IMG/VR virus record: IMGVR_UViG_3300025087_000092
Coordinates: 1-51,856 of that record
DNA from: a virus
Lineage: Duplodnaviria > Caudoviricetes
DNA: 51,856 nucleotides
Strand: one strand, 5' to 3'
In this document: positions 6,479 to 24,936 of the stretch, piece by piece
Position numbering within the stretch: position 1 is the stretch's first letter
Layout: every line of letters begins with the position of its first letter
Translations under genes and position numbers: made by a program
Notes under the pieces: generated by a model
What the model saw: only the letters and a program-made list of their open reading frames with translations
Database searches by the model: none
Told to the model about the DNA's origin: nothing

Positions 6479-6946
6479 TTATTGAGCAGGCTTATCAATA
6501 AGCATAGAAATTTTTCTATTGTAAATAACAACTGGTTCACCCGTGTAAGGATTTAGCACGGGTTGCTTTGTTTCTTCATTAAGCATTTGTCGTGATTCTG
6601 ATTTGCAGACTGCTGCAAATTCAAGACCTTTCAACATGGCCGGTTCATAACCAGCTAAATCTTCAACTTTAATTTGTGGCATGCCAACCGCTTTATGTAT
6701 GCCATTAATAGCGAATAATGCTTTTTCACTTAATGAAGTATACTGTATAATTTCTAAACCATTAATATCAATAACTTGTCCACGCAAATTAATACCAGGA
6801 TGATTAATAATTTCTACTGTTGTAACCACCATTGGTTGCTTCTTGCTTGATAACTTTTTCTCTGCATCTGTAATGCGTAAAAAATATGCATCAAGTGGCA
6901 ATTTGATTTCTTCTGGACTAACAGGGATAGGATTATCTTCACTCAT
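6479..6946 (-). CDS. DUF669-like putative single-stranded DNA-binding protein
   Basis: LPxDxYxxRITDAEKKxSSKxxPMxxxxxEI N-terminus; lies next to the AAA_24 ATPase. Confidence 0.6.
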   Translation of the reverse strand: MSEDNPIPVSPEEIKLPLDAYFLRITDAEKKLSSKKQPMVVTTVEIINHPGINLRGQVIDINGLEIIQYTSLSEKALFAINGIHKAVGMPQIKVEDLAGYEPAMLKGLEFAAVCKSESRQMLNEETKQPVLNPYTGEPVVIYNRKISMLIDKPAQ

Positions 6947-6979
6947 ATGTATTTCTATTGTTTAACTAACTACTAATTA

Positions 6980-7714
6980 CTATTTCAATCCATAATATTC
7001 CGTTATTCTATTACAGACAAATAGCAAATCATTTTGAATTTTCGGTTGGAACATTTCAGCAGGTGACTTTGCTGCTGAAATGCCATCATGGCTGGTAAGA
7101 AAACTAAATGCCGTATTCGTCGTTCCAGCTTCGCGCATTACATCAGTCCACAAAACTAATGTAAACTCTTTTTCTATTTTACCTTCCCAGGCCTTACCCG
7201 AGACAGCACAGCGTCTGCTATGAAATTTAGTTCCATTTGGATTCATCATTTCAACTAGCTCGTCAATAGCTAAAATAATGATAAATTTACTAGTGTTCTT
7301 TTTAATGCGCTCCAGTAAATCAAATATACGTTGATTATATTCTTTATAAATATCATAACCTTTAAAAGTTTTACCACAAAGATTTAGTTGAAACTCACAA
7401 TATTTTGTAAAACTATCTAGCACTATGTATTTGATTTCTGGATCACGAAGTGCAGCTTGAATTGCTTGATCTATTTTGGCTGGTATTTCTTCAGTAACTA
7501 CTTTAGTAAAATTAAATGCATTTCGGAAGGGAAGTGTTTTGTTTTCAACATTAATAATGCAAGTTTGGGCGGGAGGTAAATTACGAATACTATAACTCTT
7601 GCCTGTTCCACTTCCACCTACAATAAGAGTTACTGGAAATGGTTTATTAATAACTGTTTTTTCTGCTGCAATTTTGTTCGCAGCCTCAATGATATTTATA
7701 TTATTATCGCTCAT
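6980..7714 (-). CDS. AAA_24/Sak4-like P-loop ATPase (recombinase)
   Basis: Walker A GGSGTGKS, INVENKxLPF, Walker B IVLDS, AKSPxxMF. Confidence 0.85.
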   Translation of the reverse strand: MSDNNINIIEAANKIAAEKTVINKPFPVTLIVGGSGTGKSYSIRNLPPAQTCIINVENKTLPFRNAFNFTKVVTEEIPAKIDQAIQAALRDPEIKYIVLDSFTKYCEFQLNLCGKTFKGYDIYKEYNQRIFDLLERIKKNTSKFIIILAIDELVEMMNPNGTKFHSRRCAVSGKAWEGKIEKEFTLVLWTDVMREAGTTNTAFSFLTSHDGISAAKSPAEMFQPKIQNDLLFVCNRITEYYGLK

Positions 7715-7743
7715 TATGTTTTTGACTTTGTGAATAGTTATAA

Positions 7744-7760
7744 AGCAACTGGCATGCCAA
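7744..7760 (-). promoter_or_regulatory. Sigma54 (-24/-12) promoter
   Basis: TTGGCATGCCAGTTGCT, GG-N10-GC; intergenic, 30 nt before the AAA_24 ATG. Confidence 0.8.
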
Positions 7761-7771
7761 GTTATAATGTA

Positions 7772-8680
7772 TTAATCTTGGAATGCTAATGGATTATAAG
7801 TAATTCTTTGCATATTTGCTTCAATAGCTTGTGTTTGAATCTGCTCCGGAAGCTTACAATAATCAAAGAACTTACACGGATAAAATCTGCCATTGCAACA
7901 AGTGAAGTTTGGCTTAATATAATGTGCATCAAGCATTTCTACTAACAATCCAATTTGCTGGTGCGCCCATGTTATAAATTCTTCCATTACTGATTGTGGG
8001 TAAGTTATAATTTGACTTTGCGATATTTGTAAACCATCAAATTTACCATCTTCATTAAAAGTATTTTTGTAGAGAAATAATCCATTAATTACTAGTGGCA
8101 AATAACCTTGTTTAGTTAATTGGTTATAGCACCAGCTATAAAACATGCCTTGAATAGATAATTCATATTCTTTGAAAAATTTACTCAAAGCACTTTGGCC
8201 TTTATGAAAAGGCGCATGTGTTTTATGATCAACTAAACAAACAGTGCCTTCATAATCTGATATTAAATCAATGGTGCCAACTAAATATATATCTGTTATA
8301 TTTGACATTGTTGTATGTTTTAAATATGGTATCTTGAACTTAACTTCAAGTACTGGTTTATTATCATTATCAGTTAATAATTTGAATGGATACCCTACGC
8401 GATAATAATAGCGAATTGACTTAATTAAATGTATTGGTGTTCGCCATTCATTTTGTGGAATGAATTGTGTATATGGTTCATAATAAGCTACAGCAAGATC
8501 AATAGCTTTAGCTAAGTTTTCCCCACTATAAAACGCTTTTAATGCACGATGCATTGCATTGCCGTATGCTGCTTTATATGATCCATCTACACTTTCTCTA
8601 TAACCTTGCACTACCATATAATTAAATCTACGCAAGCAAGCTGATTCCTTTAAAGCCGAAGCATCAATTAATATTTCCAT
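7772..8680 (-). CDS. Cas4/RecB-like PD-(D/E)XK exonuclease
   Basis: N-terminal Cys, GNAMH, GTIDL...LVDHKT, QGMFY, C-terminal C..C..C cluster. Confidence 0.88.
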   Translation of the reverse strand: MEILIDASALKESACLRRFNYMVVQGYRESVDGSYKAAYGNAMHRALKAFYSGENLAKAIDLAVAYYEPYTQFIPQNEWRTPIHLIKSIRYYYRVGYPFKLLTDNDNKPVLEVKFKIPYLKHTTMSNITDIYLVGTIDLISDYEGTVCLVDHKTHAPFHKGQSALSKFFKEYELSIQGMFYSWCYNQLTKQGYLPLVINGLFLYKNTFNEDGKFDGLQISQSQIITYPQSVMEEFITWAHQQIGLLVEMLDAHYIKPNFTCCNGRFYPCKFFDYCKLPEQIQTQAIEANMQRITYNPLAFQD

Positions 8681-8684
8681 ATTA

Positions 8685-8876
8685 TTACCATGTTTTTAAA
8701 TTGTGAAACATTGAATCTTCGCCTGTATAAACACAAGCAATATGCGGACCTTTATGACCTTTTGCTCTAGTGCAAACATAGCCTAGTCTGTCCAGATAAT
8801 CATAACCACAATTCCAAGCTTTATGTCTGCATAGCCTACGCTTAGCTGTGCATTTAATACGTTGATTTTTTTTCAT
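8685..8876 (-). CDS. Small Cys/His metal-binding protein
   Basis: CTRAKGHKGPHIAC motif. Confidence 0.6.
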   Translation of the reverse strand: MKKNQRIKCTAKRRLCRHKAWNCGYDYLDRLGYVCTRAKGHKGPHIACVYTGEDSMFHNLKTW

Positions 8877-9085
8877 AGATTTTCTCCATGTTTTGATAAA
8901 GAGTTAATAAATGGTTTTACTGCTGAATCAATTACTTTATCTGATTCAAACTCAATACCGCAGTTACTGCATACTTCTGGGCCATCTTTAATGTATGGCT
9001 GATCATCTTGTCTATTTAATCCGCCCAAATGAACATTAAAATAGTGTGGCATATCACAACGGGGGCAATAATATGAAAAATCCAT
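8873..9085 (-). CDS. Zinc-ribbon protein
   Basis: CPRC...CSNC. Confidence 0.65.
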   Translation of the reverse strand: MDFSYYCPRCDMPHYFNVHLGGLNRQDDQPYIKDGPEVCSNCGIEFESDKVIDSAVKPFINSLSKHGENL

Positions 9086-9086
9086 G

Positions 9087-9530
9087 TTATAATTCTACCT
9101 CTCTTAATAATTTAATTGCACTGCAAGCAATGGATCCAACTGGAGCCATTTTTACTAATATTTCGACATTATCACTTATTTTAACAATATCAACAGATTC
9201 ATCCGATATTTTTTTAAGCGACGCTTTTGACATACTATTAAATAATTGCCAAAATGGTTCAATATCTTTATCAGTAACTACAATCCTTTTTATTTTTTGT
9301 GGTTGTCTTACATTGCAAACATAGCAGCGAAAGTAAGATTTATCTTTGAATGAAATAAAATTTTTTACTGCTTTTTTTGTGCTGAACACAAATAATTTTG
9401 AACCTTCTAGTTTTGGCATAATCCACTCATTAAGTATATACTTAATAGAATATTGACTATACAATTCAAGATTTAAAATATTAAGTATAGATTTATTATC
9501 TAACGTGGTTAATTTATAGTATGTTTTCAT
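9087..9530 (-). CDS. Hypothetical protein
   Basis: 147-aa ORF packed in the operon. Confidence 0.65.
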   Translation of the reverse strand: MKTYYKLTTLDNKSILNILNLELYSQYSIKYILNEWIMPKLEGSKLFVFSTKKAVKNFISFKDKSYFRCYVCNVRQPQKIKRIVVTDKDIEPFWQLFNSMSKASLKKISDESVDIVKISDNVEILVKMAPVGSIACSAIKLLREVEL

Positions 9531-9795
9531 CCATTTCCTCCAATTCTCGTGCCATTTTTTGTAATTCTGCCATAATGTTTTTACATTCTTTCTTTTTCTT
9601 TGATTTCTTTGGGCTAATATCTTTTAATTCTTCTTCTGGTTTATCATGCTTATTCAGCTTGCCACCAAGTTCAGCAAATTGATGATGCTTATTTTCTATA
9701 CTTATACTATCAACAAGCAATAATTTTAATTGCTCATTATCCATAGCAATTAAAGCTTCTGTAGTATAGCCGAGAATTTCTTCAATTGTTGCCAT
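9514..9795 (-). CDS. Hypothetical protein
   Basis: 93-aa ORF with Lys-rich patch. Confidence 0.65.
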   Translation of the reverse strand: MATIEEILGYTTEALIAMDNEQLKLLLVDSISIENKHHQFAELGGKLNKHDKPEEELKDISPKKSKKKKECKNIMAELQKMARELEEMDENIL

Positions 9796-9798
9796 ATT

Positions 9799-10347
9799 TC
9801 ATGATTTTACCATAGTTATAGACTTGTTATCTATTGATATTTCAATTGAAGTTCCTTCAATCAAATTTCTAACCCATTGAATGTCCGCTGTGGTTAAATC
9901 AAGATTAATTAATCGCAGAATAGTTTCACTTGAAGCTAACCATGATTCAATCTTATCTTTCCATGTTTCAATCAGATCTTCAGAAGCATGAAAATCTGGC
10001 GTTATTCTACTTGTAGGAAATGATACAATTATTCCCTCGATTTTATGCCGGAATTTTATCATTCCGCGTAGCATTAATAAATATTCAATGGAAGGCAATG
10101 ATTCTGGAGCGTGATCTTTAAATAAATTATAATGATCAATAATCCAACGCAAACCATCGGTTATGCGTTGCTTCATAGTGCCTGGAGCAAGCCGTTGATT
10201 TTTGAATGGAACAATAATATCCTTATTTATTTTACTTTTGTCCAACATGTGAACAACAGCCTGTGTATAAATAGGTAGAAAGCGTATTGCATTATTGATG
10301 CAATAGCTACTTCGTTTTATGATTGGTCTGTTGGTTTGTGGCGGCAT
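9799..10347 (-). CDS. Hypothetical protein
   Basis: 182-aa ORF with 3-nt spacing to both neighbours. Confidence 0.7.
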   Translation of the reverse strand: MPPQTNRPIIKRSSYCINNAIRFLPIYTQAVVHMLDKSKINKDIIVPFKNQRLAPGTMKQRITDGLRWIIDHYNLFKDHAPESLPSIEYLLMLRGMIKFRHKIEGIIVSFPTSRITPDFHASEDLIETWKDKIESWLASSETILRLINLDLTTADIQWVRNLIEGTSIEISIDNKSITMVKS

Positions 10348-10350
10348 AAA

Positions 10351-10710
10351 TTATATTGTTTGTGTGTGCAACCACTCCTTGTGTTCAAAAGTAGGCTTTT
10401 CGCCTTCCTTACTACGCTTAGTGTTGAATGATTCGTAAATACGAATATTTGTTATGTTTTTTGTAAAATTATGAAAACGCAACAATGCCCACCGAATTGG
10501 CGCCGGAATAACACCATAAATATTTAAATACCTTACATTCGTATCTTGCAATCGATCAAATAACTCTTTAACAACTTTAAAAGCTTCATCAGTCGTAGTA
10601 ATTTCCCTGCTTGCTAAATCAGTAAAATCAATTGTAGATCTTTCACCAATTTCATTAAGTTGAGCTTGCGTCAATTGATGACGCGTAAAAACTATTGCTA
10701 ATGTTCTCAT
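10351..10710 (-). CDS. Small alpha/beta protein, Csx16/Csx20-like (candidate ring nuclease), paralog A
   Basis: IVFTRHQLTxAQ N-terminus and TKRSKE...FEHKEW C-terminus; ATG 10710 chosen by alignment with paralog B. Confidence 0.45.
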   Translation of the reverse strand: MRTLAIVFTRHQLTQAQLNEIGERSTIDFTDLASREITTTDEAFKVVKELFDRLQDTNVRYLNIYGVIPAPIRWALLRFHNFTKNITNIRIYESFNTKRSKEGEKPTFEHKEWLHTQTI

Positions 10711-10718
10711 ATATTGTA

Positions 10719-11051
10719 TTATATTGTTTGTGTGTATAACCATTCAGAAACATTTTCGTGCTTAAACAATTCATGCACATGAATTGTTTTTGTTAGTTGG
10801 GCTTTATTTTTTAATTCAATTAAAGCCCACCGAATTGGCGGAGGAATAGTTCCATAAATATTAATTGTCTGCAATCTTGGATATTGCTGCTTTATTCGAT
10901 TAAACAATTCCATAACAATTTTTAAAGCCTTATCTGTTGAAGGAATTTTTTGATTACTATTAAAATAAATATAATCAAGATCAAGTTTAGCTTGCGCCAA
11001 CTGATCTTGTGTTAATCTACGCTTAGTAAAAACTATTGCTAATGTTCTCAT
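10719..11051 (-). CDS. Tandem paralog B of the preceding gene
   Basis: Shares MRTLAIVFT, NIYGxIPxPIRWAL and EWLxTQTI; 26 identical nt at the 5' end. Confidence 0.7.
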   Translation of the reverse strand: MRTLAIVFTKRRLTQDQLAQAKLDLDYIYFNSNQKIPSTDKALKIVMELFNRIKQQYPRLQTINIYGTIPPPIRWALIELKNKAQLTKTIHVHELFKHENVSEWLYTQTI

Positions 11052-11087
11052 GATAACGACCAAGTTTTGTTGTAACGTATCTAGATT

Positions 11088-11132
11088 AAAATAAAATAAA
11101 ACCGACTTAACTATATTTCAAATTAAGTCGGT
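11088..11132 (-). terminator. Rho-independent terminator
   Basis: 10-bp perfect stem ACCGACTTAA/TTAAGTCGGT, 12-nt loop, T-rich tail on the minus strand. Confidence 0.8.
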
Positions 11133-11147
11133 CTTTAGTTAGTGTTG

Positions 11148-11654
11148 TTAACCTTCGTCCAAATCTTGCATAGCCAGTTCCATGGCTTGCGTCATAAGTT
11201 GCTTGGCGAGTTTCTTGTCGCCTTGTTTCATAGCTTCCCGTGCTTGACGGAAAAGTTTTTCCGGCGTTATATCACGTTCACCGGGCTTGAATGCCTCAGC
11301 ATCTTCTTCCGTTAATAACAGAATCTTATCTTCTGCTATCAACTTACTCCACGCCTTCTTTTGTTCTAATGCATCATCGAATTTAGGCAATCGTCCCTTG
11401 GCCTTGTTACGCATGCTAAACGCAATTGCACTATTAATAAGCGCAAGCATTGTGGCCTCTGTATATTTTTCGATTGCTGCAGCAAGTGATTTAAACTGAA
11501 TAATATAAAAAGAGAATCCGGAAGCCGCTCCATCAAAATCTTTCTTCTCAAGATAATATTCGCCCTTATCCACTCGAACTGTTTTTTCTTCTTCGTTTTC
11601 TGCCAATTCGGCAGGATTAATCTGATTTGTATTAATAATATTTTCTTCTGGCAT
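11148..11654 (-). CDS. Hypothetical helical protein, probably its own transcription unit
   Basis: ATG 11654 preceded by SD-like AAAGGGAG; own sigma54 promoter upstream and terminator downstream. Confidence 0.75.
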   Translation of the reverse strand: MPEENIINTNQINPAELAENEEEKTVRVDKGEYYLEKKDFDGAASGFSFYIIQFKSLAAAIEKYTEATMLALINSAIAFSMRNKAKGRLPKFDDALEQKKAWSKLIAEDKILLLTEEDAEAFKPGERDITPEKLFRQAREAMKQGDKKLAKQLMTQAMELAMQDLDEG

Positions 11655-11715
11655 AATGTTCTCCCTTTTATTGTTGCTAACCTGGCTTACCACAATAGGC
11701 TTGCCCTTGCACATA

Positions 11716-11756
11716 CACACATAGCAATCGGCATGCCAATGTAGATGCTATGTGTG
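11716..11756. repeat. 11-bp inverted repeat enclosing the sigma54 promoter
   Basis: CACACATAGCA (11716-26) / TGCTATGTGTG (11746-56). Confidence 0.8.
11723..11739 (-). promoter_or_regulatory. Sigma54 (-24/-12) promoter
   Basis: TTGGCATGCCGATTGCT, GG-N10-GC; intergenic, just past the bEBP stop. Confidence 0.8.
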
Positions 11757-11763
11757 CAAAATT

Positions 11764-12543
11764 TTATAAATCCCCTAGTATATTAGCCCGGGAAATTAAA
11801 TTAATTAATTCTCTTACATTACCTTTTAATTCTTCTCCTCTTTGTCTCATGCACATTATTTCCATAAATACTTTACATGCAATATCTTTATCTTTTGCAT
11901 AATGTTGACATAATAATTCTATATCTTTTATTGGTCTGCTGCGTAATGGAGGAATATGAATTATTATTGATGAAATTCTGTAGTATAAATCTTCTCGAAA
12001 TTTCTTTTGCTTGACTAATTCTATCAAGTCCGTGTTTGTGGCGCAAACTAATCTACAATTTGCGTGTTGTTCTTTGGTATCACCCAACCTACGGTAGAAA
12101 CCATTTTGTAGAAATCTTAACAATTTACTTTGCAATATCCAAGGCATGTCACCAATTTCATCAAGAAATAAAGTGCCACCATTTGCTTCTGTAACTAATC
12201 CATCTCTATCATACATACAACCCGTATAACTACCTTTAGTTGCGCCAAAAAATTCTGCCTCAAGTAATTCACTGGGTATTCCAGCGCAGTTAACAGCAAC
12301 AAACTGTGCTGGATTTTTACCGTGTAGGGCTTGAGCAATTAATTCTTTTCCGGTTCCAGTTTCTCCTAATATTAGAACTGGAATCGTTTTAATAGCTAGT
12401 TTACGTATTATTTGTTTTATAAATTCTATTGTTGGATCTGTCGTTATGAACTTTTCAAGTATTTCATTAGTTGATGCAGCATAATCTTCTTCATCTAATT
12501 GCTGCTCAAATTTCTTCATTTGTTCAATCAATTTATTGTTCAT
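11764..12543 (-). CDS. Sigma54-dependent transcriptional activator (bEBP), AAA+ domain only
   Basis: GETGTGKE, VNCAGIP, LEAEFFG, KGSYTG (GAFTGA loop), TLFLDEIG, QSKLLRFLQ, CATN, FREDLYYR, GNVREL; no C-terminal HTH, no receiver or GAF domain. Confidence 0.95.
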   Translation of the reverse strand: MNNKLIEQMKKFEQQLDEEDYAASTNEILEKFITTDPTIEFIKQIIRKLAIKTIPVLILGETGTGKELIAQALHGKNPAQFVAVNCAGIPSELLEAEFFGATKGSYTGCMYDRDGLVTEANGGTLFLDEIGDMPWILQSKLLRFLQNGFYRRLGDTKEQHANCRLVCATNTDLIELVKQKKFREDLYYRISSIIIHIPPLRSRPIKDIELLCQHYAKDKDIACKVFMEIMCMRQRGEELKGNVRELINLISRANILGDL

Positions 12544-12544
12544 A

Positions 12545-13408
12545 TTATTCTTCAGCTAATTTTTGTTTAAACTGAAATGCTTGGTTTATTAAAGCTAACA
12601 TTTCGTTTATAATTTCCTGTTGTGTTTTATTTTCATTAATTACCGGTATATAAATATCGGTTGATTCTATTTTATATTTATCCCAGCTAGTAGTTGCACT
12701 ATAGCCAGCACCAGAATAGAAACCAAATTTTTTTATTATATCTTTTGATTCCAATTCTTCTGAAGAAAAAATTAATCTGCGCAGCATGCTTGGGTGAGCA
12801 AATGCAAATGCTAATTTATCAATATCTGCCGGTTGATCAAATTCTTTCAAAAGAATTTGACTTGTATAAAAGTTATCATTGCCTTTTTGCACAGTATGCG
12901 AATACCACAATTCAAGTTGCCAACCAAATTTAAGCATTGCTTCTACTAAAGAAACAATACATGCCCCACGATTAAATATAGTATCATGATTTATATTTGA
13001 GATATGTCCAGCACCAATAATGAATCTTTGTAATATTTTTCCTTCTTTCAAAGATTCATAATTTGGTTTGAAATTAATCATGCAATCTGGAACACCATTA
13101 ATATAATTGCCAATATTAACAGCACCGCCAACTATATTGCTATATAGTTCTTCACTATAATCAAGTTTTGGAAAATACTTACTGATTATCGGATCAATTT
13201 GTATTTTCAATTCACGTATTTTATCTAATCCTTTTGGCCATCCAGTTCTTGCTAATTTAATTGCAGTTTCAAAATTAGGAGTGCCGGCCCATTCATTATG
13301 ATTTTTATCTGATATTCTAGATTCCTTGTCAAACTCGGTTTGCTTATCTTGTGTTGTGTATTTAAGAAAAGCATACCAATTATTGTATCTTCTTAAGATG
13401 TTTTCCAT
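12545..13408 (-). CDS. VWA-like partner of MoxR-type ATPase (DUF7192-like)
   Basis: WxGTxxFExAxxLAxxGW, GVPDCM, RGAxIxxLVE, LAFAFAHPSMLRR; overlaps the AAA gene. Confidence 0.6.
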   Translation of the reverse strand: MENILRRYNNWYAFLKYTTQDKQTEFDKESRISDKNHNEWAGTPNFETAIKLARTGWPKGLDKIRELKIQIDPIISKYFPKLDYSEELYSNIVGGAVNIGNYINGVPDCMINFKPNYESLKEGKILQRFIIGAGHISNINHDTIFNRGACIVSLVEAMLKFGWQLELWYSHTVQKGNDNFYTSQILLKEFDQPADIDKLAFAFAHPSMLRRLIFSSEELESKDIIKKFGFYSGAGYSATTSWDKYKIESTDIYIPVINENKTQQEIINEMLALINQAFQFKQKLAEE

Positions 13409-14424
13409 GGATTGAAATCTTCGGTTGAAGTTATTTCAGACTGTTTATTAAAACCAAGCTTTACGCGTGCTTTTAGTTTATCTACTTGGCTAACTTCTAG
13501 TCCACGAAGTAATACACTGCAAACAAGAAAGTTTTTGTCAACTCCACTAGCAAGCATACGGATTGCTTGAAGTGTATTACGCGGTGAGATAATATGGTTA
13601 ATAGATAATTCATCAATAGCAGCCCGAATATCCACTATACTTTTGACTGTTAAATCAAAATCATTTTTATCCTTGCCACCATACCGACAATATTCATTCC
13701 ATGCTATATTGTGTTCGAATTCTTCATCATAGGGCCAATGAAGATATACAAAAATATTTAATAGTGCTTTATCTTGTGGATTGCGTCCGACATACTGTGC
13801 ATCTGCACCATTGCCAATGGTATTTGCACCAGCAACGAGGCGAAAATTAGGATGCTTATTTATGTTACCAATTGATGGAAAATGACAAACATCCCCGTCA
13901 TTAAGCATCTTTAATGCAACATTAGTGTTTGCGTTGCCATTATCTATTTCATCTATAAATAACAGACCACCATTTTTATATGGTTCATATGCAATGCCTG
14001 GGACATATTTACCATTTGCATCAGTATAGCCAATAATTTCATAAATCATAGTCTCTCTTGAAACTACCTTGCGATATGATTGTAGTTGCATTTGATTTGC
14101 AGCATTAATTACTGCAACAGTTTTGCCGCTACCAGTCGGGCCATATAAATATATAGCATCAGGCCGAGTAAGGCATGATAATAGCAAAGGATAGTTTTTG
14201 TGTTGTGATTTAACCACAAGCTCATTAGACAGTTGTGGTATATCAAGTGGTTTGAATTTAATTATTGTTTCGGCAGGTTTATTGCCTGCTATAAATGCTT
14301 TAATATCTTCAGCATTAATTAGCTTGTGAGCAATAATTTCGTTATGTATAATATCACAAATAACTCGTTCGTCAATTTTAACCTGTTTACTGACTTCATC
14401 AGTGATTATTTTTAACAAGTCCAT
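13393..14424 (-). CDS. MoxR/CbbQ-like AAA+ ATPase
   Basis: GPTGSGKT, GGLLFIDEID, HPNFRLVAGANTxGxG, YVGRN, ISPR. Confidence 0.88.
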   Translation of the reverse strand: MDLLKIITDEVSKQVKIDERVICDIIHNEIIAHKLINAEDIKAFIAGNKPAETIIKFKPLDIPQLSNELVVKSQHKNYPLLLSCLTRPDAIYLYGPTGSGKTVAVINAANQMQLQSYRKVVSRETMIYEIIGYTDANGKYVPGIAYEPYKNGGLLFIDEIDNGNANTNVALKMLNDGDVCHFPSIGNINKHPNFRLVAGANTIGNGADAQYVGRNPQDKALLNIFVYLHWPYDEEFEHNIAWNEYCRYGGKDKNDFDLTVKSIVDIRAAIDELSINHIISPRNTLQAIRMLASGVDKNFLVCSVLLRGLEVSQVDKLKARVKLGFNKQSEITSTEDFNPWKTS

Positions 14425-14426
14425 AT

Positions 14427-14696
14427 TTAATTCTTGAATTCCCGTTTTTCACAAGGTTTAAACATAATCCACTCTGGACTTATAGTTGTTTGATGCGTAT
14501 AGATGCCAGCTTTTTTGCACATAGTAGTAATTTGTCCACGTCTTGTTTGTGGACAAATTATTGTTTCACCGTTTTGCAAACGAGCAAAATACTCCTTGTT
14601 ACTTGGCATTGTTAACGGTATTATGACTTCAATTTTTGTTGAACCATTTGGTAATTTTGTTATGGTTACTTTCATAAATCCTTTTTGTTGAGCCAC
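14427..14696 (-). CDS. Hypothetical protein
   Basis: Packed early-region ORF. Confidence 0.55.
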   Translation of the reverse strand: MAQQKGFMKVTITKLPNGSTKIEVIIPLTMPSNKEYFARLQNGETIICPQTRRGQITTMCKKAGIYTHQTTISPEWIMFKPCEKREFKN

Positions 14697-14911
14697 TCCA
14701 CACAGTGTTGTTCATTACTTTCCAACCATTTTTGCAGCATTTGTGCCGGCGTGCAATCATATTCCAAATATTTTACACAACATTCTGCGTAGTAAGCTAG
14801 CAAAGCTAGCTTACAACTGTTATATTTTATATCTGCAACAGCCCCTTGTTGAATATGGTGATATTTCTCCATCGCATATTGCACATATTCCCAATTTTTG
14901 TATAATGCCAT
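14672..14911 (-). CDS. Hypothetical protein
   Basis: Packed early-region ORF. Confidence 0.55.
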   Translation of the reverse strand: MALYKNWEYVQYAMEKYHHIQQGAVADIKYNSCKLALLAYYAECCVKYLEYDCTPAQMLQKWLESNEQHCVEWLNKKDL

Positions 14912-14914
14912 AAA

Positions 14915-15118
14915 TTATTCTTGTAGTTTAATTATGTAAACTTCCCCGTTGTTGCTATCTTTATGACGATAACTTGTATCACTATCTAGATTAAAGATTC
15001 CTTTCGGGTTAGCCAGTCCAGCATTAAACAATGCTAGAAATGCTTCCTGCATTGTGAATCCATCTTGCTTCCATGGATGTTCTTTGCCTACAGTATAAGC
15101 AAATTTATATTCATTCAT
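14915..15118 (-). CDS. Hypothetical protein
   Basis: Packed early-region ORF. Confidence 0.55.
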   Translation of the reverse strand: MNEYKFAYTVGKEHPWKQDGFTMQEAFLALFNAGLANPKGIFNLDSDTSYRHKDSNNGEVYIIKLQE

Positions 15119-15490
15119 TTATATATTATTTGTCCTGTAATTTTCGTCTTCTAGCAGACTGATCCTTTCACGTAGTTCGTAATATTTTTCAGTCCATTCT
15201 ATACAATTCTTTTTAAAACCGACAGAATTAATATCACAGTGATGCACTGTGCACACTGGTCGTAAATACGGTGGCACTACACAACCCTGCGGACCAATAA
15301 ACGGTATTGGTCCATTGCTTGCAGGTAATAGTTTTATATTGTATTTTTCAAATGCATAATCCACTGTAAATTTGCAGTATTCTGCGGAACAGCAACTGTA
15401 TGCTGTTTTGCAATAATCTCGACAATCGGCTAATGTGAAATCAGCCATCTCTTGATATGCTTGAATCAATTGTAGGAGTTTATTTTTCAT
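15119..15490 (-). CDS. Cys-cluster protein (CxxxCxxxxxCC, YkgJ-like Zn/Fe-chelating)
   Basis: CRDYCKTAYSCC...PFIGPQGC...RPVC...C. Confidence 0.65.
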   Translation of the reverse strand: MKNKLLQLIQAYQEMADFTLADCRDYCKTAYSCCSAEYCKFTVDYAFEKYNIKLLPASNGPIPFIGPQGCVVPPYLRPVCTVHHCDINSVGFKKNCIEWTEKYYELRERISLLEDENYRTNNI

Positions 15491-15876
15491 ATTACTACTG
15501 GTATCTCTATGACATCATTTTTATATGTTTCAAAGAAAGCTAATAATTTTTTGTCAAAATTATTAGCTTTTGGACTGAATGCATAACCAAACCATCCACC
15601 AGTATGAACTTTTCTTATTTCAGCACCATATAATTCCATTTTGCCTAGTAAATGCAATGGAATCATATAGTGCTTGTGCAATATTGTCGTGTTTGAACTA
15701 TTAGTTGTCAACAATTGAAACACTATGTAACCTGCTGATTTCAATTCACTTGTATGAATTTTTAACAAATTCACGCAATCATCAATAATTTTTTTGCTTT
15801 CAGCAATAATAAGCTGATTTTTATTGATTGCAATGGTCAACTTATACACTTTGTGTGCTATCTGTTTCTTGTTCAT
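15487..15876 (-). CDS. Hypothetical protein
   Basis: Packed early-region ORF. Confidence 0.6.
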   Translation of the reverse strand: MNKKQIAHKVYKLTIAINKNQLIIAESKKIIDDCVNLLKIHTSELKSAGYIVFQLLTTNSSNTTILHKHYMIPLHLLGKMELYGAEIRKVHTGGWFGYAFSPKANNFDKKLLAFFETYKNDVIEIPVVI

Positions 15877-15886
15877 TGGCTATAAT

Positions 15887-17383
15887 TTATTGGTTGTAGT
15901 TATCTAAATCAATACTATCAAGTATGCTTTCTCCGGCTTCATCCTTATCTAGTGCTTCTTCTTCTAACTTAGATTCCATTTCGGAATCCACGTTTTCATT
16001 TAGAATATCTAACCAGCTTTCTTTCCTTGTAACAAGCTCCTTCAAAGAATGCAATCCAAGGTCCATTTTGTATTTAACCCTTTCCTCAATAGTGCCTGCA
16101 TACAACACAACATCTTGATATGTTGTGCTTTGAGTCAATACTCTGTGCGCTCTACCTAATGCTTGGACCATTTCAATTGGCGACCAAGTAACAGGTAGAA
16201 TAACATGCCTTGGACGGGCATTCTTATGCCCTGTCTGATGATCAAGCGACAAACCAACGCCACCACACTTGAGAATCATCAAACAATAGTTTGATTGTCC
16301 GCGTTGGAATTTATCTATATTCTCTTGGCGCACCTTTTCTGTTTGGTTGCCGTAGATAACGGATATTTCATCCGGTTTGACGCTATTTTTAATTAGTGTT
16401 TTTCCAACTAATTCTAATACGTCTATGAAGTTGCAAGCAATGATGATTTGCTTATTATTGTGCTTGTTAATTTCAATGGCAATCCGGGCTAGCTTAGGAG
16501 CCCGAAGAATTTCGCTAATTTGGCGAAATTTTAGGAATGCTACCCAAACTGCAGCAAGACCCATTAAAGGATTGCGTCCCTTTTCTGCACGTACTTTTTG
16601 ATATTCGGCAAAGGCCGAATGATAAATTGCACGCTGTTCGTCATTTTCGAAATTGATCAATTGAGTTTTGATAATTGTCCGGTGCAGAAATTTAGGTGAG
16701 TTGATATTCACCTTAAGTTGACGCTCCAGCAAGAATTCGTTAAATCGCCTCATTACAATTGGCGATGGTTGACTTGGTGGATTATTCCAATTGCAAAAAT
16801 CATTTTGCAAACTGTGCCAAGATTGTGGGCTATTGCAAAGTTTTAAACCGTAACTCAATACTTGCAAATCATCAAATTTTACGCCAGGCGTTGCCGATGA
16901 AAAAATAACACGTCCGCCCTGCAAGATATATGCAAGCAATACTTTGCTGCACAAAGCGTCTATGTTTTTTACCGACTGGCATTCGTCGGCGATGACTAAA
17001 TCTGGCATATCCTCATTACGCCAGATAGGTTCGTAAGCTATTTCGCCGGCTACAATTTTGCTAACCCAGTCGAGCCAGAATTCACCAAATCCAGCGCGCA
17101 TGGAGTCATAGCTTTCTACTGCAACATGCTGCAAACCAAATTGCTTGCAAACACGCCGGGTTTGTGTTTTTACTGATTTCTTGGTTAACCACAAAATGGA
17201 ACAGAGTTTGCCTTGTCCATTTTGATAGAAACCATGTTGCTGTAACCTTGCAATTGCTGCTGCAATTACATAGGTTTTACCCGAACCTGCCTGTCCAGTT
17301 AGCAGGGCAGATTTGTTCGCCAAGATATTATCTACTAAATCTTGGCTAGGTTTGATCTGAAATTGTAATAACTCGGCATTCAT
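15887..17383 (-). CDS. SF2 (SNF2-like) helicase/ATPase
   Basis: GQAGSGKT, IADECQ, SATP, GGVGLSL, WSP..MVQALGRAHR. Confidence 0.9.
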   Translation of the reverse strand: MNAELLQFQIKPSQDLVDNILANKSALLTGQAGSGKTYVIAAAIARLQQHGFYQNGQGKLCSILWLTKKSVKTQTRRVCKQFGLQHVAVESYDSMRAGFGEFWLDWVSKIVAGEIAYEPIWRNEDMPDLVIADECQSVKNIDALCSKVLLAYILQGGRVIFSSATPGVKFDDLQVLSYGLKLCNSPQSWHSLQNDFCNWNNPPSQPSPIVMRRFNEFLLERQLKVNINSPKFLHRTIIKTQLINFENDEQRAIYHSAFAEYQKVRAEKGRNPLMGLAAVWVAFLKFRQISEILRAPKLARIAIEINKHNNKQIIIACNFIDVLELVGKTLIKNSVKPDEISVIYGNQTEKVRQENIDKFQRGQSNYCLMILKCGGVGLSLDHQTGHKNARPRHVILPVTWSPIEMVQALGRAHRVLTQSTTYQDVVLYAGTIEERVKYKMDLGLHSLKELVTRKESWLDILNENVDSEMESKLEEEALDKDEAGESILDSIDLDNYNQ

Positions 17384-17389
17384 GCTATT

Positions 17390-18054: not shown

Positions 18055-18109
18055 AACATAAAAAAGCTAGTCTATAATTATATAGACTAGCTTTGCTGGT
18101 AATGGGAAA

Positions 18110-18580: not shown

Positions 18581-18631
18581 CTACTGACCCTTTCTTTGTT
18601 TTACGAAGTTAACTAACTAGCTGCAAGCTAT

Positions 18632-18648
18632 AGCAATAATTGTGCCAA
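18632..18648 (-). promoter_or_regulatory. Sigma54 (-24/-12) promoter heading the left arm
   Basis: TTGGCACAATTATTGCT matches the consensus TGGCAC-N5-TTGCW. Confidence 0.88.
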
Positions 18649-19317: not shown

Positions 19318-19353
19318 ATTTGATTTGGCATACAGATTTGATTTGGCATGCAG
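19318..19353 (+). repeat. 18-bp tandem duplication overlapping the late promoter
   Basis: ATTTGATTTGGCATACAG / ATTTGATTTGGCATGCAG (one mismatch). Confidence 0.9.
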
Positions 19354-19359
19354 AATGCT
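19343..19359 (+). promoter_or_regulatory. Sigma54 (-24/-12) promoter heading the structural arm
   Basis: TTGGCATGCAGAATGCT, GG-N10-GC, 15 nt before the terS ATG. Confidence 0.78.
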
Positions 19360-19374
19360 TCTTGTTAAAATTAT

Positions 19375-19777: not shown

Positions 19778-21394
19778 ATGAGTGACTATCGAGAGTTTCC
19801 AGTTAAATTTGAATCACCAGTAGAATTATTAGCATTCTATGATGATGACATGAATAATGGTCAAATTAAATTGCATAACTGGCAAATTGATCGCATGAAA
19901 GTTTTTGGTAGAAATCGTAAAAATTCAGCAGATATAATTAAAGCAGCTTTATGTTCAGCTAATGGTGTTGGCAAATCACAATTTGTCCTTGCCCCTTGCG
20001 CGTGTTGGATGGCGATAACACATGTGGAAAGTCTCACAGTAATTACTACTGCATCCGGTGAACAACTTGATACACAAGATCAGCGGTATATAAGAAGACT
20101 TGGAGAAAAAATTAATTCAGTTCATCGTGAAGATTTAGGCGGCATGGATGTATTTAAATTAAATTACCGACAATTCTTCAATAATGTTACTGGTAGTTTT
20201 ATTGATATGTTTGCCACAGATGAACCTAAGAAAGCAGAAGGAAGACATCCTATCAGACCTAATGCAGAATTTGCTATAATTGTTGATGAAGCAAAAACAG
20301 TAAGTGATGATATATTTGGAGCCTTAGATCGTTGCACGGGTTTCACCCGTAAATATCTTATTTCTTCTCCAGGCGATAGTTCTGGTTATTTTTATGATAT
20401 AATGATTATGTCAGATAGTGGCTTTGATAAAAGAACTGTAACTGCATTTGAATGTAGTCATTTAAATAAAGATGACATAGCATGGAAAATTCGCAAATAT
20501 GGTCTCAATCATCCATTAATCAGATCAAGTATATTTGCAGAATTTGTGCATATAGGAGGAGCAGTAGTAATAAGTAGAGAATTATTAAAGAAATGTCAAG
20601 CATTACTTACACGCATTATTCATTTTGGTCCAATCCGTGCCGGCTTTGATATTTCAGCTGGCGGAGATGAGCAAGTAATTAGTATTTGGCATGGCAATGA
20701 AATGTTGGCTCAAATATGTTGGAATATTACAGATACTATTGAACTTGTTTATAAAGCTATTGAAGTATTTAAAGAGTGGAAAATAGATGCACGAAATATT
20801 TATGCTGATGATGGTGGATTAGGAAGAGCAGTTATTGATAATTTTCGTGAAAAAGGTTGGAATTTTAATAGAATAAATAATCAAAGCCGTGCTTATGATT
20901 ATATGCACTATGCAAATAGGGGTGCAGAATTATACTGGAATTTTCGCAGATTTGTTGAGGAAAAACAAGTAAAAATAATTGATGACGGAATACTTTTTAA
21001 TCAACTTACTACTCGTCAGACTCGTCAACAACAAGCAACAGGTAAAATATTATTAGAAAGTAAAGCAGAAGCAAAGAAACATGGTAGGCCATCACCTGAT
21101 AGAGCAGACGCCTGCGTTCTTGCATGGGTTCCGTATATATTTCCTGTTGATGCTTTACAGCATAATGCTGATGATAAAAATGATAGAACTACACATTGTC
21201 AAGCAATAACAGCAGAAGAATTAATAGCATTATTTGATACTGAACTAAGAATGAATTATCAAGCTGGCATGAATAATGCTAATAATAATGTTGTAGATGG
21301 ACGATATATCAAAAATGATAATTTCGTCAGCAATTATAAAACATTAATGGAGAAATTAAATGAAAGATCAAAAATTTTCAGAAGATATGAATAA
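19778..21394 (+). CDS. terL: Terminase large subunit
   Basis: ANGVGKS, IIVDEA, ISSPG, AGFDIS..GDE, SPDRADA; ATG 19778 preferred over TTG 19766. Confidence 0.93.
   Translation: MSDYREFPVKFESPVELLAFYDDDMNNGQIKLHNWQIDRMKVFGRNRKNSADIIKAALCSANGVGKSQFVLAPCACWMAITHVESLTVITTASGEQLDTQDQRYIRRLGEKINSVHREDLGGMDVFKLNYRQFFNNVTGSFIDMFATDEPKKAEGRHPIRPNAEFAIIVDEAKTVSDDIFGALDRCTGFTRKYLISSPGDSSGYFYDIMIMSDSGFDKRTVTAFECSHLNKDDIAWKIRKYGLNHPLIRSSIFAEFVHIGGAVVISRELLKKCQALLTRIIHFGPIRAGFDISAGGDEQVISIWHGNEMLAQICWNITDTIELVYKAIEVFKEWKIDARNIYADDGGLGRAVIDNFREKGWNFNRINNQSRAYDYMHYANRGAELYWNFRRFVEEKQVKIIDDGILFNQLTTRQTRQQQATGKILLESKAEAKKHGRPSPDRADACVLAWVPYIFPVDALQHNADDKNDRTTHCQAITAEELIALFDTELRMNYQAGMNNANNNVVDGRYIKNDNFVSNYKTLMEKLNERSKIFRRYE
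21264..21280 (+). promoter_or_regulatory. Candidate internal sigma54 promoter in the terL 3' end
   Basis: CTGGCATGAATAATGCT, same TGGCAT-N5-ATGCT type as the other late sites; 80-110 nt before the next ORF. Confidence 0.5.
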
Positions 21395-24763: not shown

Positions 24764-24780
24764 TTGGCATAATATATGCT
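24764..24780 (+). promoter_or_regulatory. Sigma54 (-24/-12) promoter for the capsid operon
   Basis: TTGGCATAATATATGCT, GG-N10-GC, intergenic. Confidence 0.75.
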
Positions 24781-24936
24781 TTAATTGTTTCAGTGACTAA
24801 TTGTAGCTATAAAGTAGCAAGTTAGTTCGCCTGCCAATGGCTGGTGTATTGCTTCTGTTTAGTGAAGGGCATCACTGGTTAACTTGCTAGCACCTTAGTT
24901 TAGCAATTAATTAATGATAACAGAAGGTAAAACAGT

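What the first reader, a model, noticed from the sequence alone, without database searches (positions are those of the whole stretch)
11764..12543. The activator lacks both sensor and DNA-binding domains and has a GSYTGC loop
Seen: only a short acidic helical segment precedes the AAA+ domain, the protein ends about 14 residues after GNVREL with no Fis-type HTH, and GAFTGA reads GSYTGC with the key Thr kept. Established: HTH-less bEBPs such as Helicobacter FlgR and Chlamydia CtcC activate without enhancers. Inference: a constitutive, enhancer-independent activator that could also fire host sigma54 promoters, or alternatively a dominant-negative inhibitor of host bEBPs.
Basis: partly seen in the sequence, partly recalled or inferred. 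Interest (0 to 1): 0.8.

Follow-up and report, generated by a model that had tools for sequence, protein, structure and literature searches.

The report
Phage-encoded minimal sigma54 activator
A complete 52-kb phage genome encodes a stripped-down sigma54 activator (ATPase core only) and carries six textbook sigma54 promoters in front of its own genes, which suggests this phage and many relatives run part of their gene programme on the host's sigma54 RNA polymerase.

Summary
ORF 11764-12543 (-) encodes 259 aa consisting of a sigma54-interaction AAA+ domain (PF00158, E=6e-59). It has about 30 acidic N-terminal residues, no receiver or sensor domain and no Fis-type HTH. It ends 13 residues after GNVREL, and its L1 loop reads GSYTGC.

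The context matters more than the loop. The window is a complete virus record with no sigma54, sigma70-family or HTH_8 match. It has six strong TGGCAY-N5-WTGCT sites. Five are intergenic and all six point at downstream genes, including the terminase-containing structural arm.

The short form is a viral lineage. 63 of 80 viral relatives are under 330 aa, against 0 complete short forms among 80 bacterial-genome relatives. 58 short forms make one supported clade. Loci with a short EBP hold 70 strict sigma54 motifs against about 2.9 expected; loci with a long EBP hold 1 against 0.8. In 11 of 28 cluster representatives a site lies within 100 nt after the EBP stop codon, as in the window.

Best reading: a constitutive activator that works from solution and switches on phage sigma54 promoters. 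It is a natural counterpart of the engineered DctD250. The dominant-negative idea is disfavoured. There is no experimental or RNA evidence, and the host is unknown.

The parts
11764..12543 (-). Gene for the minimal bEBP (259 aa from M1; 251 aa if M9 is the start); the stop codon is 11764-11766
   Evidence: ORF list; PF00158 E=6.2e-59; the only PF00158 match in the record; AF2 model pLDDT 94.3; Foldseek top hits FleQ, NtrC4 and NtrC1 at TM about 0.78-0.80
12343..12366 (-). Walker A, GETGTGKE (residues 60-67)
   Evidence: Translation; G60, G63, G65, K66 and E67 are invariant in 35 short homologs
12217..12234 (-). L1 loop GSYTGC (residues 104-109), the counterpart of GAFTGA
   Evidence: Translation; G104 is invariant and T107 and G108 are at least 90% conserved in A1
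12151..12171 (-). Walker B, LFLDEIG (residues 125-131)
   Evidence: F126, L127, D128 and E129 are invariant in A1
11767..11823 (-). Sensor II GNVREL plus the 13-residue C-terminal tail; no HTH follows
   Evidence: Translation; no HTH_8 in any frame of the record
11721..11739 (-). Sigma54-type -24/-12 site TTGGCATGCCGATTGCTAT, starting 24 nt after the EBP stop codon and upstream of gene X
   Evidence: PWM 22.4 bits, intergenic; the same arrangement occurs in 11 of 28 relatives by the strict motif and in 5 more by the relaxed PWM
11148..11654 (-). Gene X, a conserved virus-only protein of unknown function (168 aa from the ATG at 11654). It is the first sigma54-driven unit after the EBP gene
   Evidence: Homologs directly follow the EBP gene and a sigma54 site in 7 other cluster representatives; the Atlas finds only a viral hypothetical cluster
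11098..11135 (-). Terminator-like hairpin closing the gene X unit
   Evidence: 15-pair stem plus T run
18630..18648 (-). Sigma54-type site TTGGCACAATTATTGCTAT, upstream of gene 18110-18580
   Evidence: PWM 23.2 bits, intergenic, 50 nt before the start codon; zero-mismatch hit to TGGCAC-N5-TTGC
18063..18094 (-). Terminator-like hairpin after gene 18110-18580
   Evidence: 14-pair stem plus T run
7742..7760 (-). Sigma54-type site TTGGCATGCCAGTTGCTTT, upstream of the Sak4-like annealing protein gene 6980-7714
   Evidence: PWM 23.0 bits, intergenic; downstream gene is phrog_2872 Sak4-like
19343..19361 (+). Sigma54-type site TTGGCATGCAGAATGCTTC at the head of the plus-strand structural arm (gene 19375-19773, then terminase large subunit 19766-21394)
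   Evidence: PWM 22.5 bits, intergenic; TerL is phrog_2
21264..21282 (+). Sigma54-type site CTGGCATGAATAATGCTAA inside the 3' end of the terminase gene, upstream of ORFs 21360-21632 and 21640-23466
   Evidence: PWM 20.6 bits, in coding sequence
24764..24782 (+). Sigma54-type site TTGGCATAATATATGCTTT upstream of gene 24937-26214
   Evidence: PWM 19.1 bits, intergenic. This is the weakest of the six; 1 of 30 shuffles reached 19.5

Best explanation
The gene encodes a phage-borne bacterial enhancer-binding protein reduced to its AAA+ sigma54-interaction core. It is made from the replication/early arm of the phage as the last gene of a tightly packed block. I infer that it self-assembles into an active ring without any signal, because it has no regulatory domain. 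I also infer that it contacts host sigma54-RNA polymerase directly from solution, because it has no DNA-binding domain. ATP hydrolysis would then open closed complexes waiting at the six phage -24/-12 promoters. Those promoters head the structural arm (terminase, further virion genes) and three single units on the other arm: gene X just downstream of the activator gene, a 156-aa protein gene, and the Sak4-like recombination gene. On this reading the activator is the phage's switch to middle/late expression, and it would probably also fire the host's own sigma54 promoters as a side effect. Shown: the domain anatomy, the motifs, the promoter-like sites with their placement, and their co-occurrence with short EBPs across viral genomes. 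Inferred: ATPase activity, sigma54 contact, enhancer independence, timing, and that the host has sigma54.
For: 1. Anatomy. PF00158 E=6e-59 with no other domain. Walker A and B, the L1 Thr, the arginine fingers (R183, R189) and sensor II R244 are conserved in 35 short homologs. The model has pLDDT 94.3 and matches FleQ, NtrC1 and PspF AAA+ domains at TM about 0.78-0.80. The best solved relatives by sequence are NtrC4 and NtrC1, at E about 1e-52 to 1e-50.
2. Dependence on the host. The record is complete (CheckV 100%) and has no Sigma54_DBD, Sigma54_CBD, Sigma70_r2 or HTH_8 match. It has only one PF00158 gene.
3. Promoters in the window. Six PWM sites score 19.1-23.2 bits and the next best scores 13.3. 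Five are intergenic and all six are co-oriented with the downstream gene. The strict motif occurs 6 times against 0.11 expected.
4. Comparative evidence. 63 of 80 viral relatives are under 330 aa. In those loci there are 70 strict motifs in 853 kb against 2.86 expected; in 17 long-EBP loci there is 1 in 235 kb against 0.82 expected. After dereplication, 24 of 29 short-type representatives have at least one site, against 1 of 16 long-type. Five complete relatives of 52-54 kb have 7, 6, 4, 4 and 4 sites, and the reversed-pattern control gives 0 in each. The pooled sites give tTGGCAYG-N3-cTTGCT, the canonical sigma54 consensus.
5. Synteny. A same-strand site lies within 100 nt after the EBP stop in 11 of 28 representatives and within 600 nt in 16 of 28. 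None of 28 has a site within 600 nt upstream of the EBP start. The relaxed PWM adds 5 more just after the stop.
6. Lineage. 58 short forms make one clade with SH-aLRT 96. Among 80 bacterial-genome relatives, no complete ORF is under 330 aa.
7. Precedent. DctD250, the AAA+ core of DctD alone, activates many sigma54 promoters without an enhancer (PMC3844500, passages).
8. No shared 6-8-mer occurs upstream of the six promoters beyond what shuffles give.
Against: There is no experimental or transcript evidence: no RNA run holds the sequence. The host is unknown, so the presence of rpoN in it is assumed. The weakest window site (19.1 bits) is within the range of mononucleotide shuffles, whose maximum was 19.5 in 30. 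The expected counts come from base composition only, and the loci there were not dereplicated; address this in part. The UAS test was crude: exact k-mers, six sequences, -5 to -260 only. How the activator gene itself is transcribed was not established. The only strong upstream promoter-like element on its strand is the sigma54 site at 18630-18648, followed by a terminator, so a bootstrapping problem remains unless weak sigma70-like sites serve. Truncated bEBPs acting from solution were about 10-fold weaker than the enhancer-bound native activator (PMC3844500), so a targeting partner cannot be excluded.
Confidence: 0.68

Rival explanations
1. The activator needs a partner for targeting. It could form mixed rings with a DNA-binding host bEBP, as reviews describe for FleT, or it could be recruited by a phage protein such as the conserved gene X product. 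In that case it would not be truly enhancer-independent.
For: FleT is the only natural bEBP described as lacking both the R and D domains (PMC7175178, passages; PMC3162934, passages). That it works with FleQ is my recollection, not something seen in a call. Solution-acting truncated bEBPs are weaker than enhancer-bound ones (PMC3844500). Gene X is syntenic with the EBP in 8 cluster representatives. Many homologs carry an extra N-terminal 'GLxDLAxxxGI' segment.
Against: No shared upstream motif was found at the six promoters. Several promoters sit in gaps of 43-57 bp, so all their upstream DNA is coding. Gene X is itself behind a sigma54 site, so it cannot be needed for the first round of activation. 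The window protein lacks the extra N-terminal segment. The gene X model was too poor to assign a fold (pLDDT 68).
Confidence: 0.15
2. The protein's main job is to reprogramme the host by switching on the host sigma54 regulon. The phage sites would be incidental or secondary.
For: An AAA+-only bEBP fires many unrelated host sigma54 promoters (PMC3844500). A T4-like phage protein with a bEBP-like fold alters more than 700 host genes (preprint 10.64898/2026.10.06.757011, passages), although that protein lacks the GAFTGA loop.
Against: Sigma54 motifs are about 25-fold enriched in short-EBP viral loci and sit in intergenic gaps facing phage genes, including the terminase arm. The conserved position immediately after the EBP gene is hard to explain as incidental.
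Confidence: 0.1
3. The protein is a dominant-negative or poison subunit. It would block host bEBPs or sequester sigma54, and would not activate.
For: It lacks the domains that normally control and target bEBPs, and its loop is not canonical (GSYTGC).
Against: All catalytic and sigma54-contact positions are conserved across a 58-member clade. The loop substitutions are of kinds listed as compatible with activation (PMC4641369), and PspF F85Y still binds sigma54 region I fragments (PMC3467059, passages). The phage carries sigma54 promoters that need an activator, and this is the only one it encodes.
Confidence: 0.04

Closest known systems
FleT of Rhodobacter (Cereibacter) sphaeroides
   Same: A natural bEBP consisting of the AAA+ core only, with neither a regulatory domain nor a DNA-binding domain. 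[quoted passage not shown]
   Different: FleT is chromosomal and belongs to a flagellar hierarchy; that it acts together with the DNA-binding bEBP FleQ is my recollection. The window protein is phage-encoded, belongs to a large viral clade, and no second bEBP is encoded with it. I did not compare the sequences, because no FleT sequence was on hand.
DctD250, the engineered AAA+ core of Sinorhizobium DctD (residues 141-390)
   Same: About 250 aa with the same domain content. It is constitutively active, promiscuous, and activates E-sigma54 from solution without an enhancer (PMC3844500). This is the best functional model for the phage protein.
   Different: It is a laboratory truncation, not a natural protein, and is about 10-fold weaker than the enhancer-bound native activator at glnK. 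The phage protein's activity is untested.
Helicobacter FlgR and Chlamydia CtcC (group 5 bEBPs)
   Same: [quoted passage not shown] FlgR is described as an enhancer-independent activator; I saw this only as a reference title in PMC3162934 and as an entry in the table of PMC7175178.
   Different: They keep an N-terminal receiver domain and are controlled by phosphorylation. The window protein has no receiver.
PspF and HrpR/HrpS (group 4 bEBPs)
   Same: They have no N-terminal regulatory domain, and the AAA+ core is intrinsically active. PspF(1-275) is a close structural match.
   Different: They keep an HTH, bind enhancers, and are held in check by a trans-acting inhibitor (PspA, HrpV). The window protein has no HTH, and no inhibitor is evident.
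The 'sigma54-type regulator' noted in Bdellovibrio phage phi1422
   Same: This is the only mention I found of a sigma54-type regulator gene in a cultured phage (PMC3391216, passages).
   Different: It is mentioned in passing as a co-opted bacterial gene, with no promoters, domain analysis or function. It did not appear among the organisms tallied in my tblastn search of GenBank phages, so its relationship to this protein is unknown.
Htm (Gp204) of Mosigvirus AV110
   Same: A phage protein with a bEBP-like AAA+ fold and no DNA-binding domain, proposed to act on sigma54-RNAP (preprint, passages).
   Different: According to the authors, Htm lacks the GAFTGA loop and has an altered Walker B. The window protein keeps both features.

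Membership tests
bEBP / sigma54-interaction AAA+ domain (Pfam PF00158) | Match to the PF00158 profile above the gathering score, over its full length | tested here: met
   198.9 bits against a cut-off of 20.2; profile positions 2-167 of 168
bEBP / sigma54-interaction AAA+ domain (Pfam PF00158) | Walker A (GxxGxGK) and Walker B (hhhhDE) | tested here: met
   GETGTGKE; LFLDE, with D128 and E129 invariant in A1
bEBP / sigma54-interaction AAA+ domain (Pfam PF00158) | GAFTGA-type L1 loop with the sigma54-contacting aromatic residue and Thr | tested here: met
   GSYTGC: Y replaces F and the Thr is kept. The variants GSFTGA, GAYTGS and GAYTDA are listed as compatible with activation (PMC4641369). The exact hexamer has not been tested functionally
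bEBP / sigma54-interaction AAA+ domain (Pfam PF00158) | Arginine fingers, sensor I and sensor II (GNVRE) | tested here: met
   R183, R189 and R244 are invariant and T169 and N170 are at least 90% conserved; GNVREL is present. Assigning these positions to those roles is by homology and from my recollection
bEBP / sigma54-interaction AAA+ domain (Pfam PF00158) | Clade-6 AAA+ fold | tested here: met
   AF2 pLDDT 94.3; Foldseek TM 0.78-0.80 to FleQ, NtrC4, NtrC1 and PspF
bEBP / sigma54-interaction AAA+ domain (Pfam PF00158) | ATP-dependent remodelling of E-sigma54 closed complexes | not testable with these tools
   Needs biochemistry
Canonical three-domain enhancer-binding protein (NtrC/NifA/DmpR types) | C-terminal Fis-type HTH (PF02954) that binds an upstream enhancer | tested here: not met
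   No HTH_8 in the protein or in any frame of the record. The protein ends 13 aa after GNVREL
Canonical three-domain enhancer-binding protein (NtrC/NifA/DmpR types) | N-terminal regulatory domain (receiver, GAF, PAS, V4R) | tested here: not met
   Only about 30 residues precede the AAA+ domain, with no Pfam hit. NCBIfam equivalog scores are far below their cut-offs
Group 5 DBD-less bEBPs (FlgR, CtcC) | Receiver domain plus AAA+ domain, without an HTH | tested here: not met
   No receiver domain. The FlgR NCBIfam model matches only profile positions 125-367 of 429 and scores 189 against a cut-off of 750
AAA+-only bEBP (FleT type) | Lacks both the regulatory and the DNA-binding domain | tested here: met
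AAA+-only bEBP (FleT type) | Orthology to FleT, and action as a hetero-oligomer with a DNA-binding bEBP | not tested
   No FleT sequence was on hand. No second bEBP is present in the record. The host's bEBPs are unknown
Sigma54-dependent promoter | GG and GC elements 10 nt apart within TGGCAC-N5-TTGCW, placed upstream of a gene and co-oriented with it | tested here: met
   Six sites at or above 19 bits; five are intergenic and all are co-oriented. One is an exact match to TGGCAC-N5-TTGC
Sigma54-dependent promoter | Transcription start about 12 nt downstream of the GC element, dependent on rpoN and an activator | not testable with these tools
   No RNA holder was listed

The most novel reading that the evidence does not exclude
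A widespread lineage of tailed phages, covering complete genomes of about 52 kb and many other viral contigs, runs its middle/late gene programme on the host's sigma54 holoenzyme. It does this with a self-encoded, signal-free and enhancer-free AAA+ activator and 4-7 canonical -24/-12 promoters per genome. In five searches I found no description of this phage transcription strategy. It would also turn the AAA+-only bEBP from a single curiosity (FleT) into a large natural family.
Probability: 0.5. Interest if true: 0.82.

Novelty: new variant of a known kind. Interest (0 to 1): 0.72.

Why it matters
Known phage strategies for redirecting transcription include phage-encoded RNA polymerases, sigma70-family factors, sigma appropriators, antiterminators and late activators of sigma70 promoters. 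In five full-text searches I found none that uses sigma54 with a phage-made activator. Sigma54 promoters are silent without an activator. A phage that supplies a constitutive one therefore gets a tight, leak-free, ATP-driven switch with a single small gene. This would explain why the arrangement 'activator gene, then the first sigma54 promoter' recurs.

If the reading is right, three things follow:
- It adds a large natural family of AAA+-only bEBPs. A 2020 review knew only one, FleT.
- It predicts that infection switches on the host sigma54 regulon (motility, nitrogen, envelope stress) as a by-product.
- It offers compact, naturally optimised parts (a solution-acting activator plus short promoters) for orthogonal expression systems.

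It would also make rpoN a host-range determinant for these phages.

Tried and rejected
- **Megablast of 9000-17500 against GenBank phages** gave no match.
- **tblastn of the protein against GenBank phages** gave 66 records, all under 60% identity. Most are evidently bacterial contigs filed as phage, with full-length glnG, atoC or zraR annotations. None was a cultured phage with a clear short form, and I did not follow them up.
- **The search for related loci with the single protein** found nothing. With the alignment it worked.
- **Rfam and tRNA scans** of the window found nothing.
- **Search for a shared upstream motif.** The first script timed out. The simplified exact k-mer version found nothing beyond shuffles.
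- **Gene X.** Pfam gave only weak sub-threshold hits and PHROGs gave none. The Atlas gave only a viral hypothetical cluster. The AF2 model was too poor (pLDDT 68, pTM 0.40), so I ran no fold search on it.
- **Sequencing runs.** The tool was busy five times and then answered: no RNA holder listed. I did not use read laying, because DNA contigs cannot show transcript starts.
- **PF00940 (phage-type RNAP).** There was no match, but the control rang nowhere, so this result is uninformative.
- **Complex prediction** was not used. A ring of AAA+ copies, or a stand-in sigma54 from another host, would pass or fail by likeness to solved structures and would not change my odds.
- **The idea that GSYTGC marks an unusual or disabled loop** was considered and rejected.
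- **Supplementary files of papers** were not consulted. The supplementary tables of PMC3391216 may hold the phi1422 gene details.
Full report
**1. What is at the coordinates**

ORF 11764-12543 on the minus strand encodes 259 aa. Pfam places a full-length sigma54-interaction domain at residues 33-195 (PF00158, E=6.2e-59, profile positions 2-167 of 168). It finds nothing else above threshold: no receiver, GAF, PAS or HTH_8 domain.

NCBIfam models for NtrC, NifA, NorR, PspF, FlgR and others match only through their central parts and score far below their curated cut-offs. PHROGs files the protein under phrog_7998, 'unknown function'.

Direct translations confirm three motifs:
- Walker A reads GETGTGKE.
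- The L1 loop reads GSYTGC.
- The C-terminus reads GNVRELINLISRANILGDL followed by a stop, which leaves 13 residues after GNVREL.

The first 32 residues contain 8 acidic and 4 basic residues. The model predicts them as helical, at lower confidence than the rest. HTH_8 is absent from every frame of the record. The 43 bp after the stop codon are occupied by a promoter-like site, so the missing DNA-binding domain is not a frameshift artefact. One caveat is that the start codon may be M9 rather than M1; the database copy is 251 aa.

**2. Is it a working bEBP core?**

In an alignment of 35 short homologs, these positions are invariant or nearly so: Walker A, Walker B (D128, E129), G104 and T107 of the loop, R183, R189, T169, N170 and R244. 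An AlphaFold2 model built on that alignment is confident (pLDDT 94.3, pTM 0.86). It superposes on the AAA+ domains of FleQ, NtrC4, NtrC1, LuxO and PspF at TM about 0.74-0.80. By sequence, the best solved relatives are Aquifex NtrC4 and NtrC1 (E about 1e-52 to 1e-50).

The loop sequence is not special. Relatives carry GSFTGA (the commonest), GSYTGA, GAYTGA, GAYTGS, GAFTGS and also GSYTGC. A survey of Desulfovibrio EBPs lists GSFTGA, GAYTGS, GAYTDA and others as variants expected to keep activity (PMC4641369, passages). PspF F85Y still binds sigma54 region I fragments (PMC3467059, passages).

**3. The genome around it**

The window is an entire virus record of 51,856 bp, which CheckV rates 100% complete. 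It has two arms.

| Arm | Coordinates | Recognised genes |
|---|---|---|
| Minus strand | 1-18580 | DUF3987 primase/helicase-like, family-A DNA polymerase, Sak4-like annealing protein, PD-(D/E)XK nuclease, the EBP, a DUF7192 protein, a MoxR/CobS-like ATPase, a helicase |
| Plus strand | 19375-51179 | Terminase large subunit, tail-fibre/depolymerase-like proteins, many unassigned ORFs |

The record has no match to either sigma54 domain family, to sigma70 region 2, or to a second PF00158 gene. The phage therefore relies on host RNA polymerase, and the EBP is the only recognisable transcription factor I found.

**4. Sigma54 promoters in the phage**

A regex scan and then a weight matrix built from relatives' sites pick out six sites. 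They score 19.1-23.2 bits, and the next best site in 104 kb of two-strand sequence scores 13.3.

| Site | Strand | Position relative to genes |
|---|---|---|
| 18630-18648 | - | Intergenic; 50 nt before a 156-aa gene that ends in a strong hairpin terminator |
| 11721-11739 | - | Intergenic; starts 24 nt after the EBP stop codon, before 'gene X', which also ends in a strong terminator |
| 7742-7760 | - | Intergenic; before the Sak4-like gene |
| 19343-19361 | + | Intergenic; at the head of the structural arm, before a 132-aa gene and the terminase |
| 21264-21282 | + | Inside the 3' end of the terminase gene |
| 24764-24782 | + | Intergenic; before a 425-aa gene |

Five of the six sites lie in roughly 2 kb of intergenic DNA, and all six face a downstream gene.

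The strict motif TGGCAY-N5-WTGCW occurs 6 times against 0.11 expected from composition. In 30 mononucleotide shuffles the maximum PWM score was 19.5. The four best sites are therefore clearly above chance on their own, and the two weakest rely on their placement.

**5. The same design across a viral lineage**

The best database matches, P0001-P0021, are all 251-280 aa and carry no HTH or receiver Pfam hit. Full-length bacterial response regulators begin only at rank 22.

A scan of viral contigs found 300 relatives among 311 candidate stretches, of which I examined the 80 kept. 63 of the 80 ORFs are under 330 aa; two of those are cut by a contig end.

In a tree of 161 AAA+ cores, the window protein sits in a clade of 58 rows that are all short forms (SH-aLRT 96). 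The tree was a quick LG+G4 search with midpoint rooting for drawing only.

The sigma54 motif tracks the short form:
- Short-EBP loci hold 70 strict matches in 853 kb, against 2.86 expected.
- Long-EBP loci hold 1 match in 235 kb, against 0.82 expected.
- After clustering the EBPs at 80% identity, 24 of 29 short-type representatives have at least one site, most of them intergenic. Only 1 of 16 long-type representatives does.
- Five complete relatives of 52-54 kb carry 7, 6, 4, 4 and 4 sites, and a reversed-pattern control gives 0 in each.

The 45 pooled sites give tTGGCAYG-N3-cTTGCT, which is the textbook sigma54 consensus.

**6. A conserved cassette**

The strict motif lies on the same strand within 100 nt after the EBP stop codon in 11 of 28 short-type representatives, and within 600 nt in 16 of 28. 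None of the 28 has a site within 600 nt upstream of the EBP start. A relaxed matrix adds five more sites just after the stop, with -12 variants CTGC or TTGCG. One short-type locus had no site, and none of six long-type loci had one.

In 8 representatives, including the window, the gene behind this site is the same virus-only protein of about 135-168 aa, gene X. So the activator gene closes one transcription unit, and the first activator-dependent unit begins right after it.

**7. Mechanism proposed**

Two points are established knowledge. bEBPs do not recruit E-sigma54; they remodel closed complexes that have already formed. An isolated AAA+ core is enough to do this from solution at many unrelated promoters, as shown for DctD250 (residues 141-390). 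DctD250 is constitutive and enhancer-independent, though about 10-fold weaker than enhancer-bound NtrC at glnK (PMC3844500, passages).

The phage protein has the same domain content. I therefore infer this sequence:
1. It is made with the replication genes.
2. It oligomerises without a signal.
3. It opens host E-sigma54 complexes at the six phage promoters, turning on structural genes and a few highly expressed single-gene units.

No shared upstream 6-8-mer was found, and several promoters have only coding DNA upstream of them. Both points fit enhancer independence, but the motif test was crude. Firing of host sigma54 promoters is an expected by-product.

Two things remain open. The first is how the EBP block itself is transcribed: only weak sigma70-like matches were seen, and the one strong element upstream on its strand is itself a sigma54 site followed by a terminator. 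The second is whether a partner increases efficiency.

**8. Rivals**

- A partner-dependent version, either FleT-like mixed rings or recruitment by a phage protein, keeps about 0.15.
- Host reprogramming as the main role keeps about 0.1. It is weakened by the enrichment, placement and synteny of the phage sites.
- A dominant-negative role keeps about 0.04. It is weakened by the invariant catalytic residues across the clade and by the phage's own need for an activator.

**9. Comparison with what is known**

[quoted passage not shown] FlgR and CtcC lack the D domain but keep a receiver, so the window protein fails that membership test. PspF and HrpR/HrpS lack the R domain but keep an HTH, so it fails that test too. 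It meets every sequence and fold criterion for a bEBP core and has the FleT-type architecture. Orthology to FleT was not tested.

For phages, five full-text searches found no description of a phage-encoded bEBP acting on phage sigma54 promoters. The nearest items were:
- a passing note of a 'sigma54-type regulator' in Bdellovibrio phage phi1422 (PMC3391216, passages);
- a 2026 preprint on Htm, a T4-like phage protein with a bEBP-like fold that lacks the GAFTGA loop (passages);
- a putative sigma54-like factor, not an activator, in a Pectobacterium phage (PMC7693777, passages).

The library covers only open-licence PMC papers and bioRxiv, so a description in a subscription journal cannot be excluded.

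**10. Verdict**

The interest lies in the system, which is a viral lineage of minimal bEBPs coupled to canonical sigma54 promoters in the phage genomes.

I rate it a new variant of a known kind, with interest 0.72. Confidence in the mechanism is 0.68, and it is limited by three gaps: no expression data (no RNA holder was listed), no known host, and no biochemistry.

Noticed in passing
window 18581-19374: A 794-bp stretch lies between the two divergent arms with no convincing ORF. It is bounded by outward-facing sigma54-type sites and has no Rfam hit. It may hold the origin, early promoters or an RNA. An 18-nt tandem duplication (19318-19335 and 19336-19353, ATTTGATTTGGCAT[A/G]CAG) creates a second -24-like element that has no -12 GC.
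   Followed up: partly
window 11148-11654 (-), and L008, L020, L022, L028, L032, L067, L077: Gene X is a virus-only protein of about 135-168 aa that follows the EBP gene and a sigma54 site in 8 cluster representatives. It has no Pfam or PHROG family. The Atlas matches only a viral hypothetical cluster of 111 members, and the AF2 model is poor. Its function is unknown. It could be a co-factor or a highly expressed middle protein.
   Followed up: partly
window 12545-14424 (-): Immediately upstream of the EBP gene lies a pair of genes: a MoxR/CobS-like AAA+ ATPase (AAA_5; phrog_249, 'porphyrin biosynthesis') and a DUF7192 protein (phrog_1909). They overlap or abut the EBP gene; the DUF7192 stop and the EBP ATG are 1 nt apart.
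   Followed up: no
window 10351-10743 (-) and 10719-11063 (-): Two adjacent small genes look like tandem paralogs. Both contain MRTLAIVFT..., IYG.IP.PIRWAL... and end in EWL.TQTI (read). Neither has a Pfam or PHROG family.
   Followed up: no
whole window: Only 19 of 57 called genes have even a loose Shine-Dalgarno 4-mer upstream, and GC content is about 33%. This hints at a host that depends little on SD sequences. The DNA is held by coded runs X1-X11, labelled groundwater or soil metagenome. The host was not identified.
   Followed up: partly
window 1-1146 (-) and 51702-51856: The DUF3987 primase/helicase-like ORF runs off the start of the record. The 'linear' record is therefore probably cut within a gene of a circularly permuted or circular genome. 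Three of the five relatives have direct terminal repeats.
   Followed up: no
window 43986-51179 (+) and 33584-36262 (+): ORFs of 2397 aa and 892 aa in the structural arm have no PHROG match at E of 0.001 or better. Several other structural-arm ORFs, including the presumed capsid-region gene 24937-26214, are also unassigned.
   Followed up: no
alignment A1 (short EBP homologs): Most short homologs carry an extra N-terminal segment with a 'GLxDLAxxxG[IV]' motif about 25-40 residues before the AAA+ domain. The window protein lacks it. Whether it is a small interaction or DNA-contact element is unknown.
   Followed up: no
GenBank 'phages' collection hits H1-H40: Many records labelled as phage (e.g. 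'Acinetobacter phage MD-2021a', and Salmonella and Listeria entries) carry full-length annotated host bEBP genes such as glnG, atoC, zraR and prpR. They look like bacterial contigs filed as phage.
   Followed up: no
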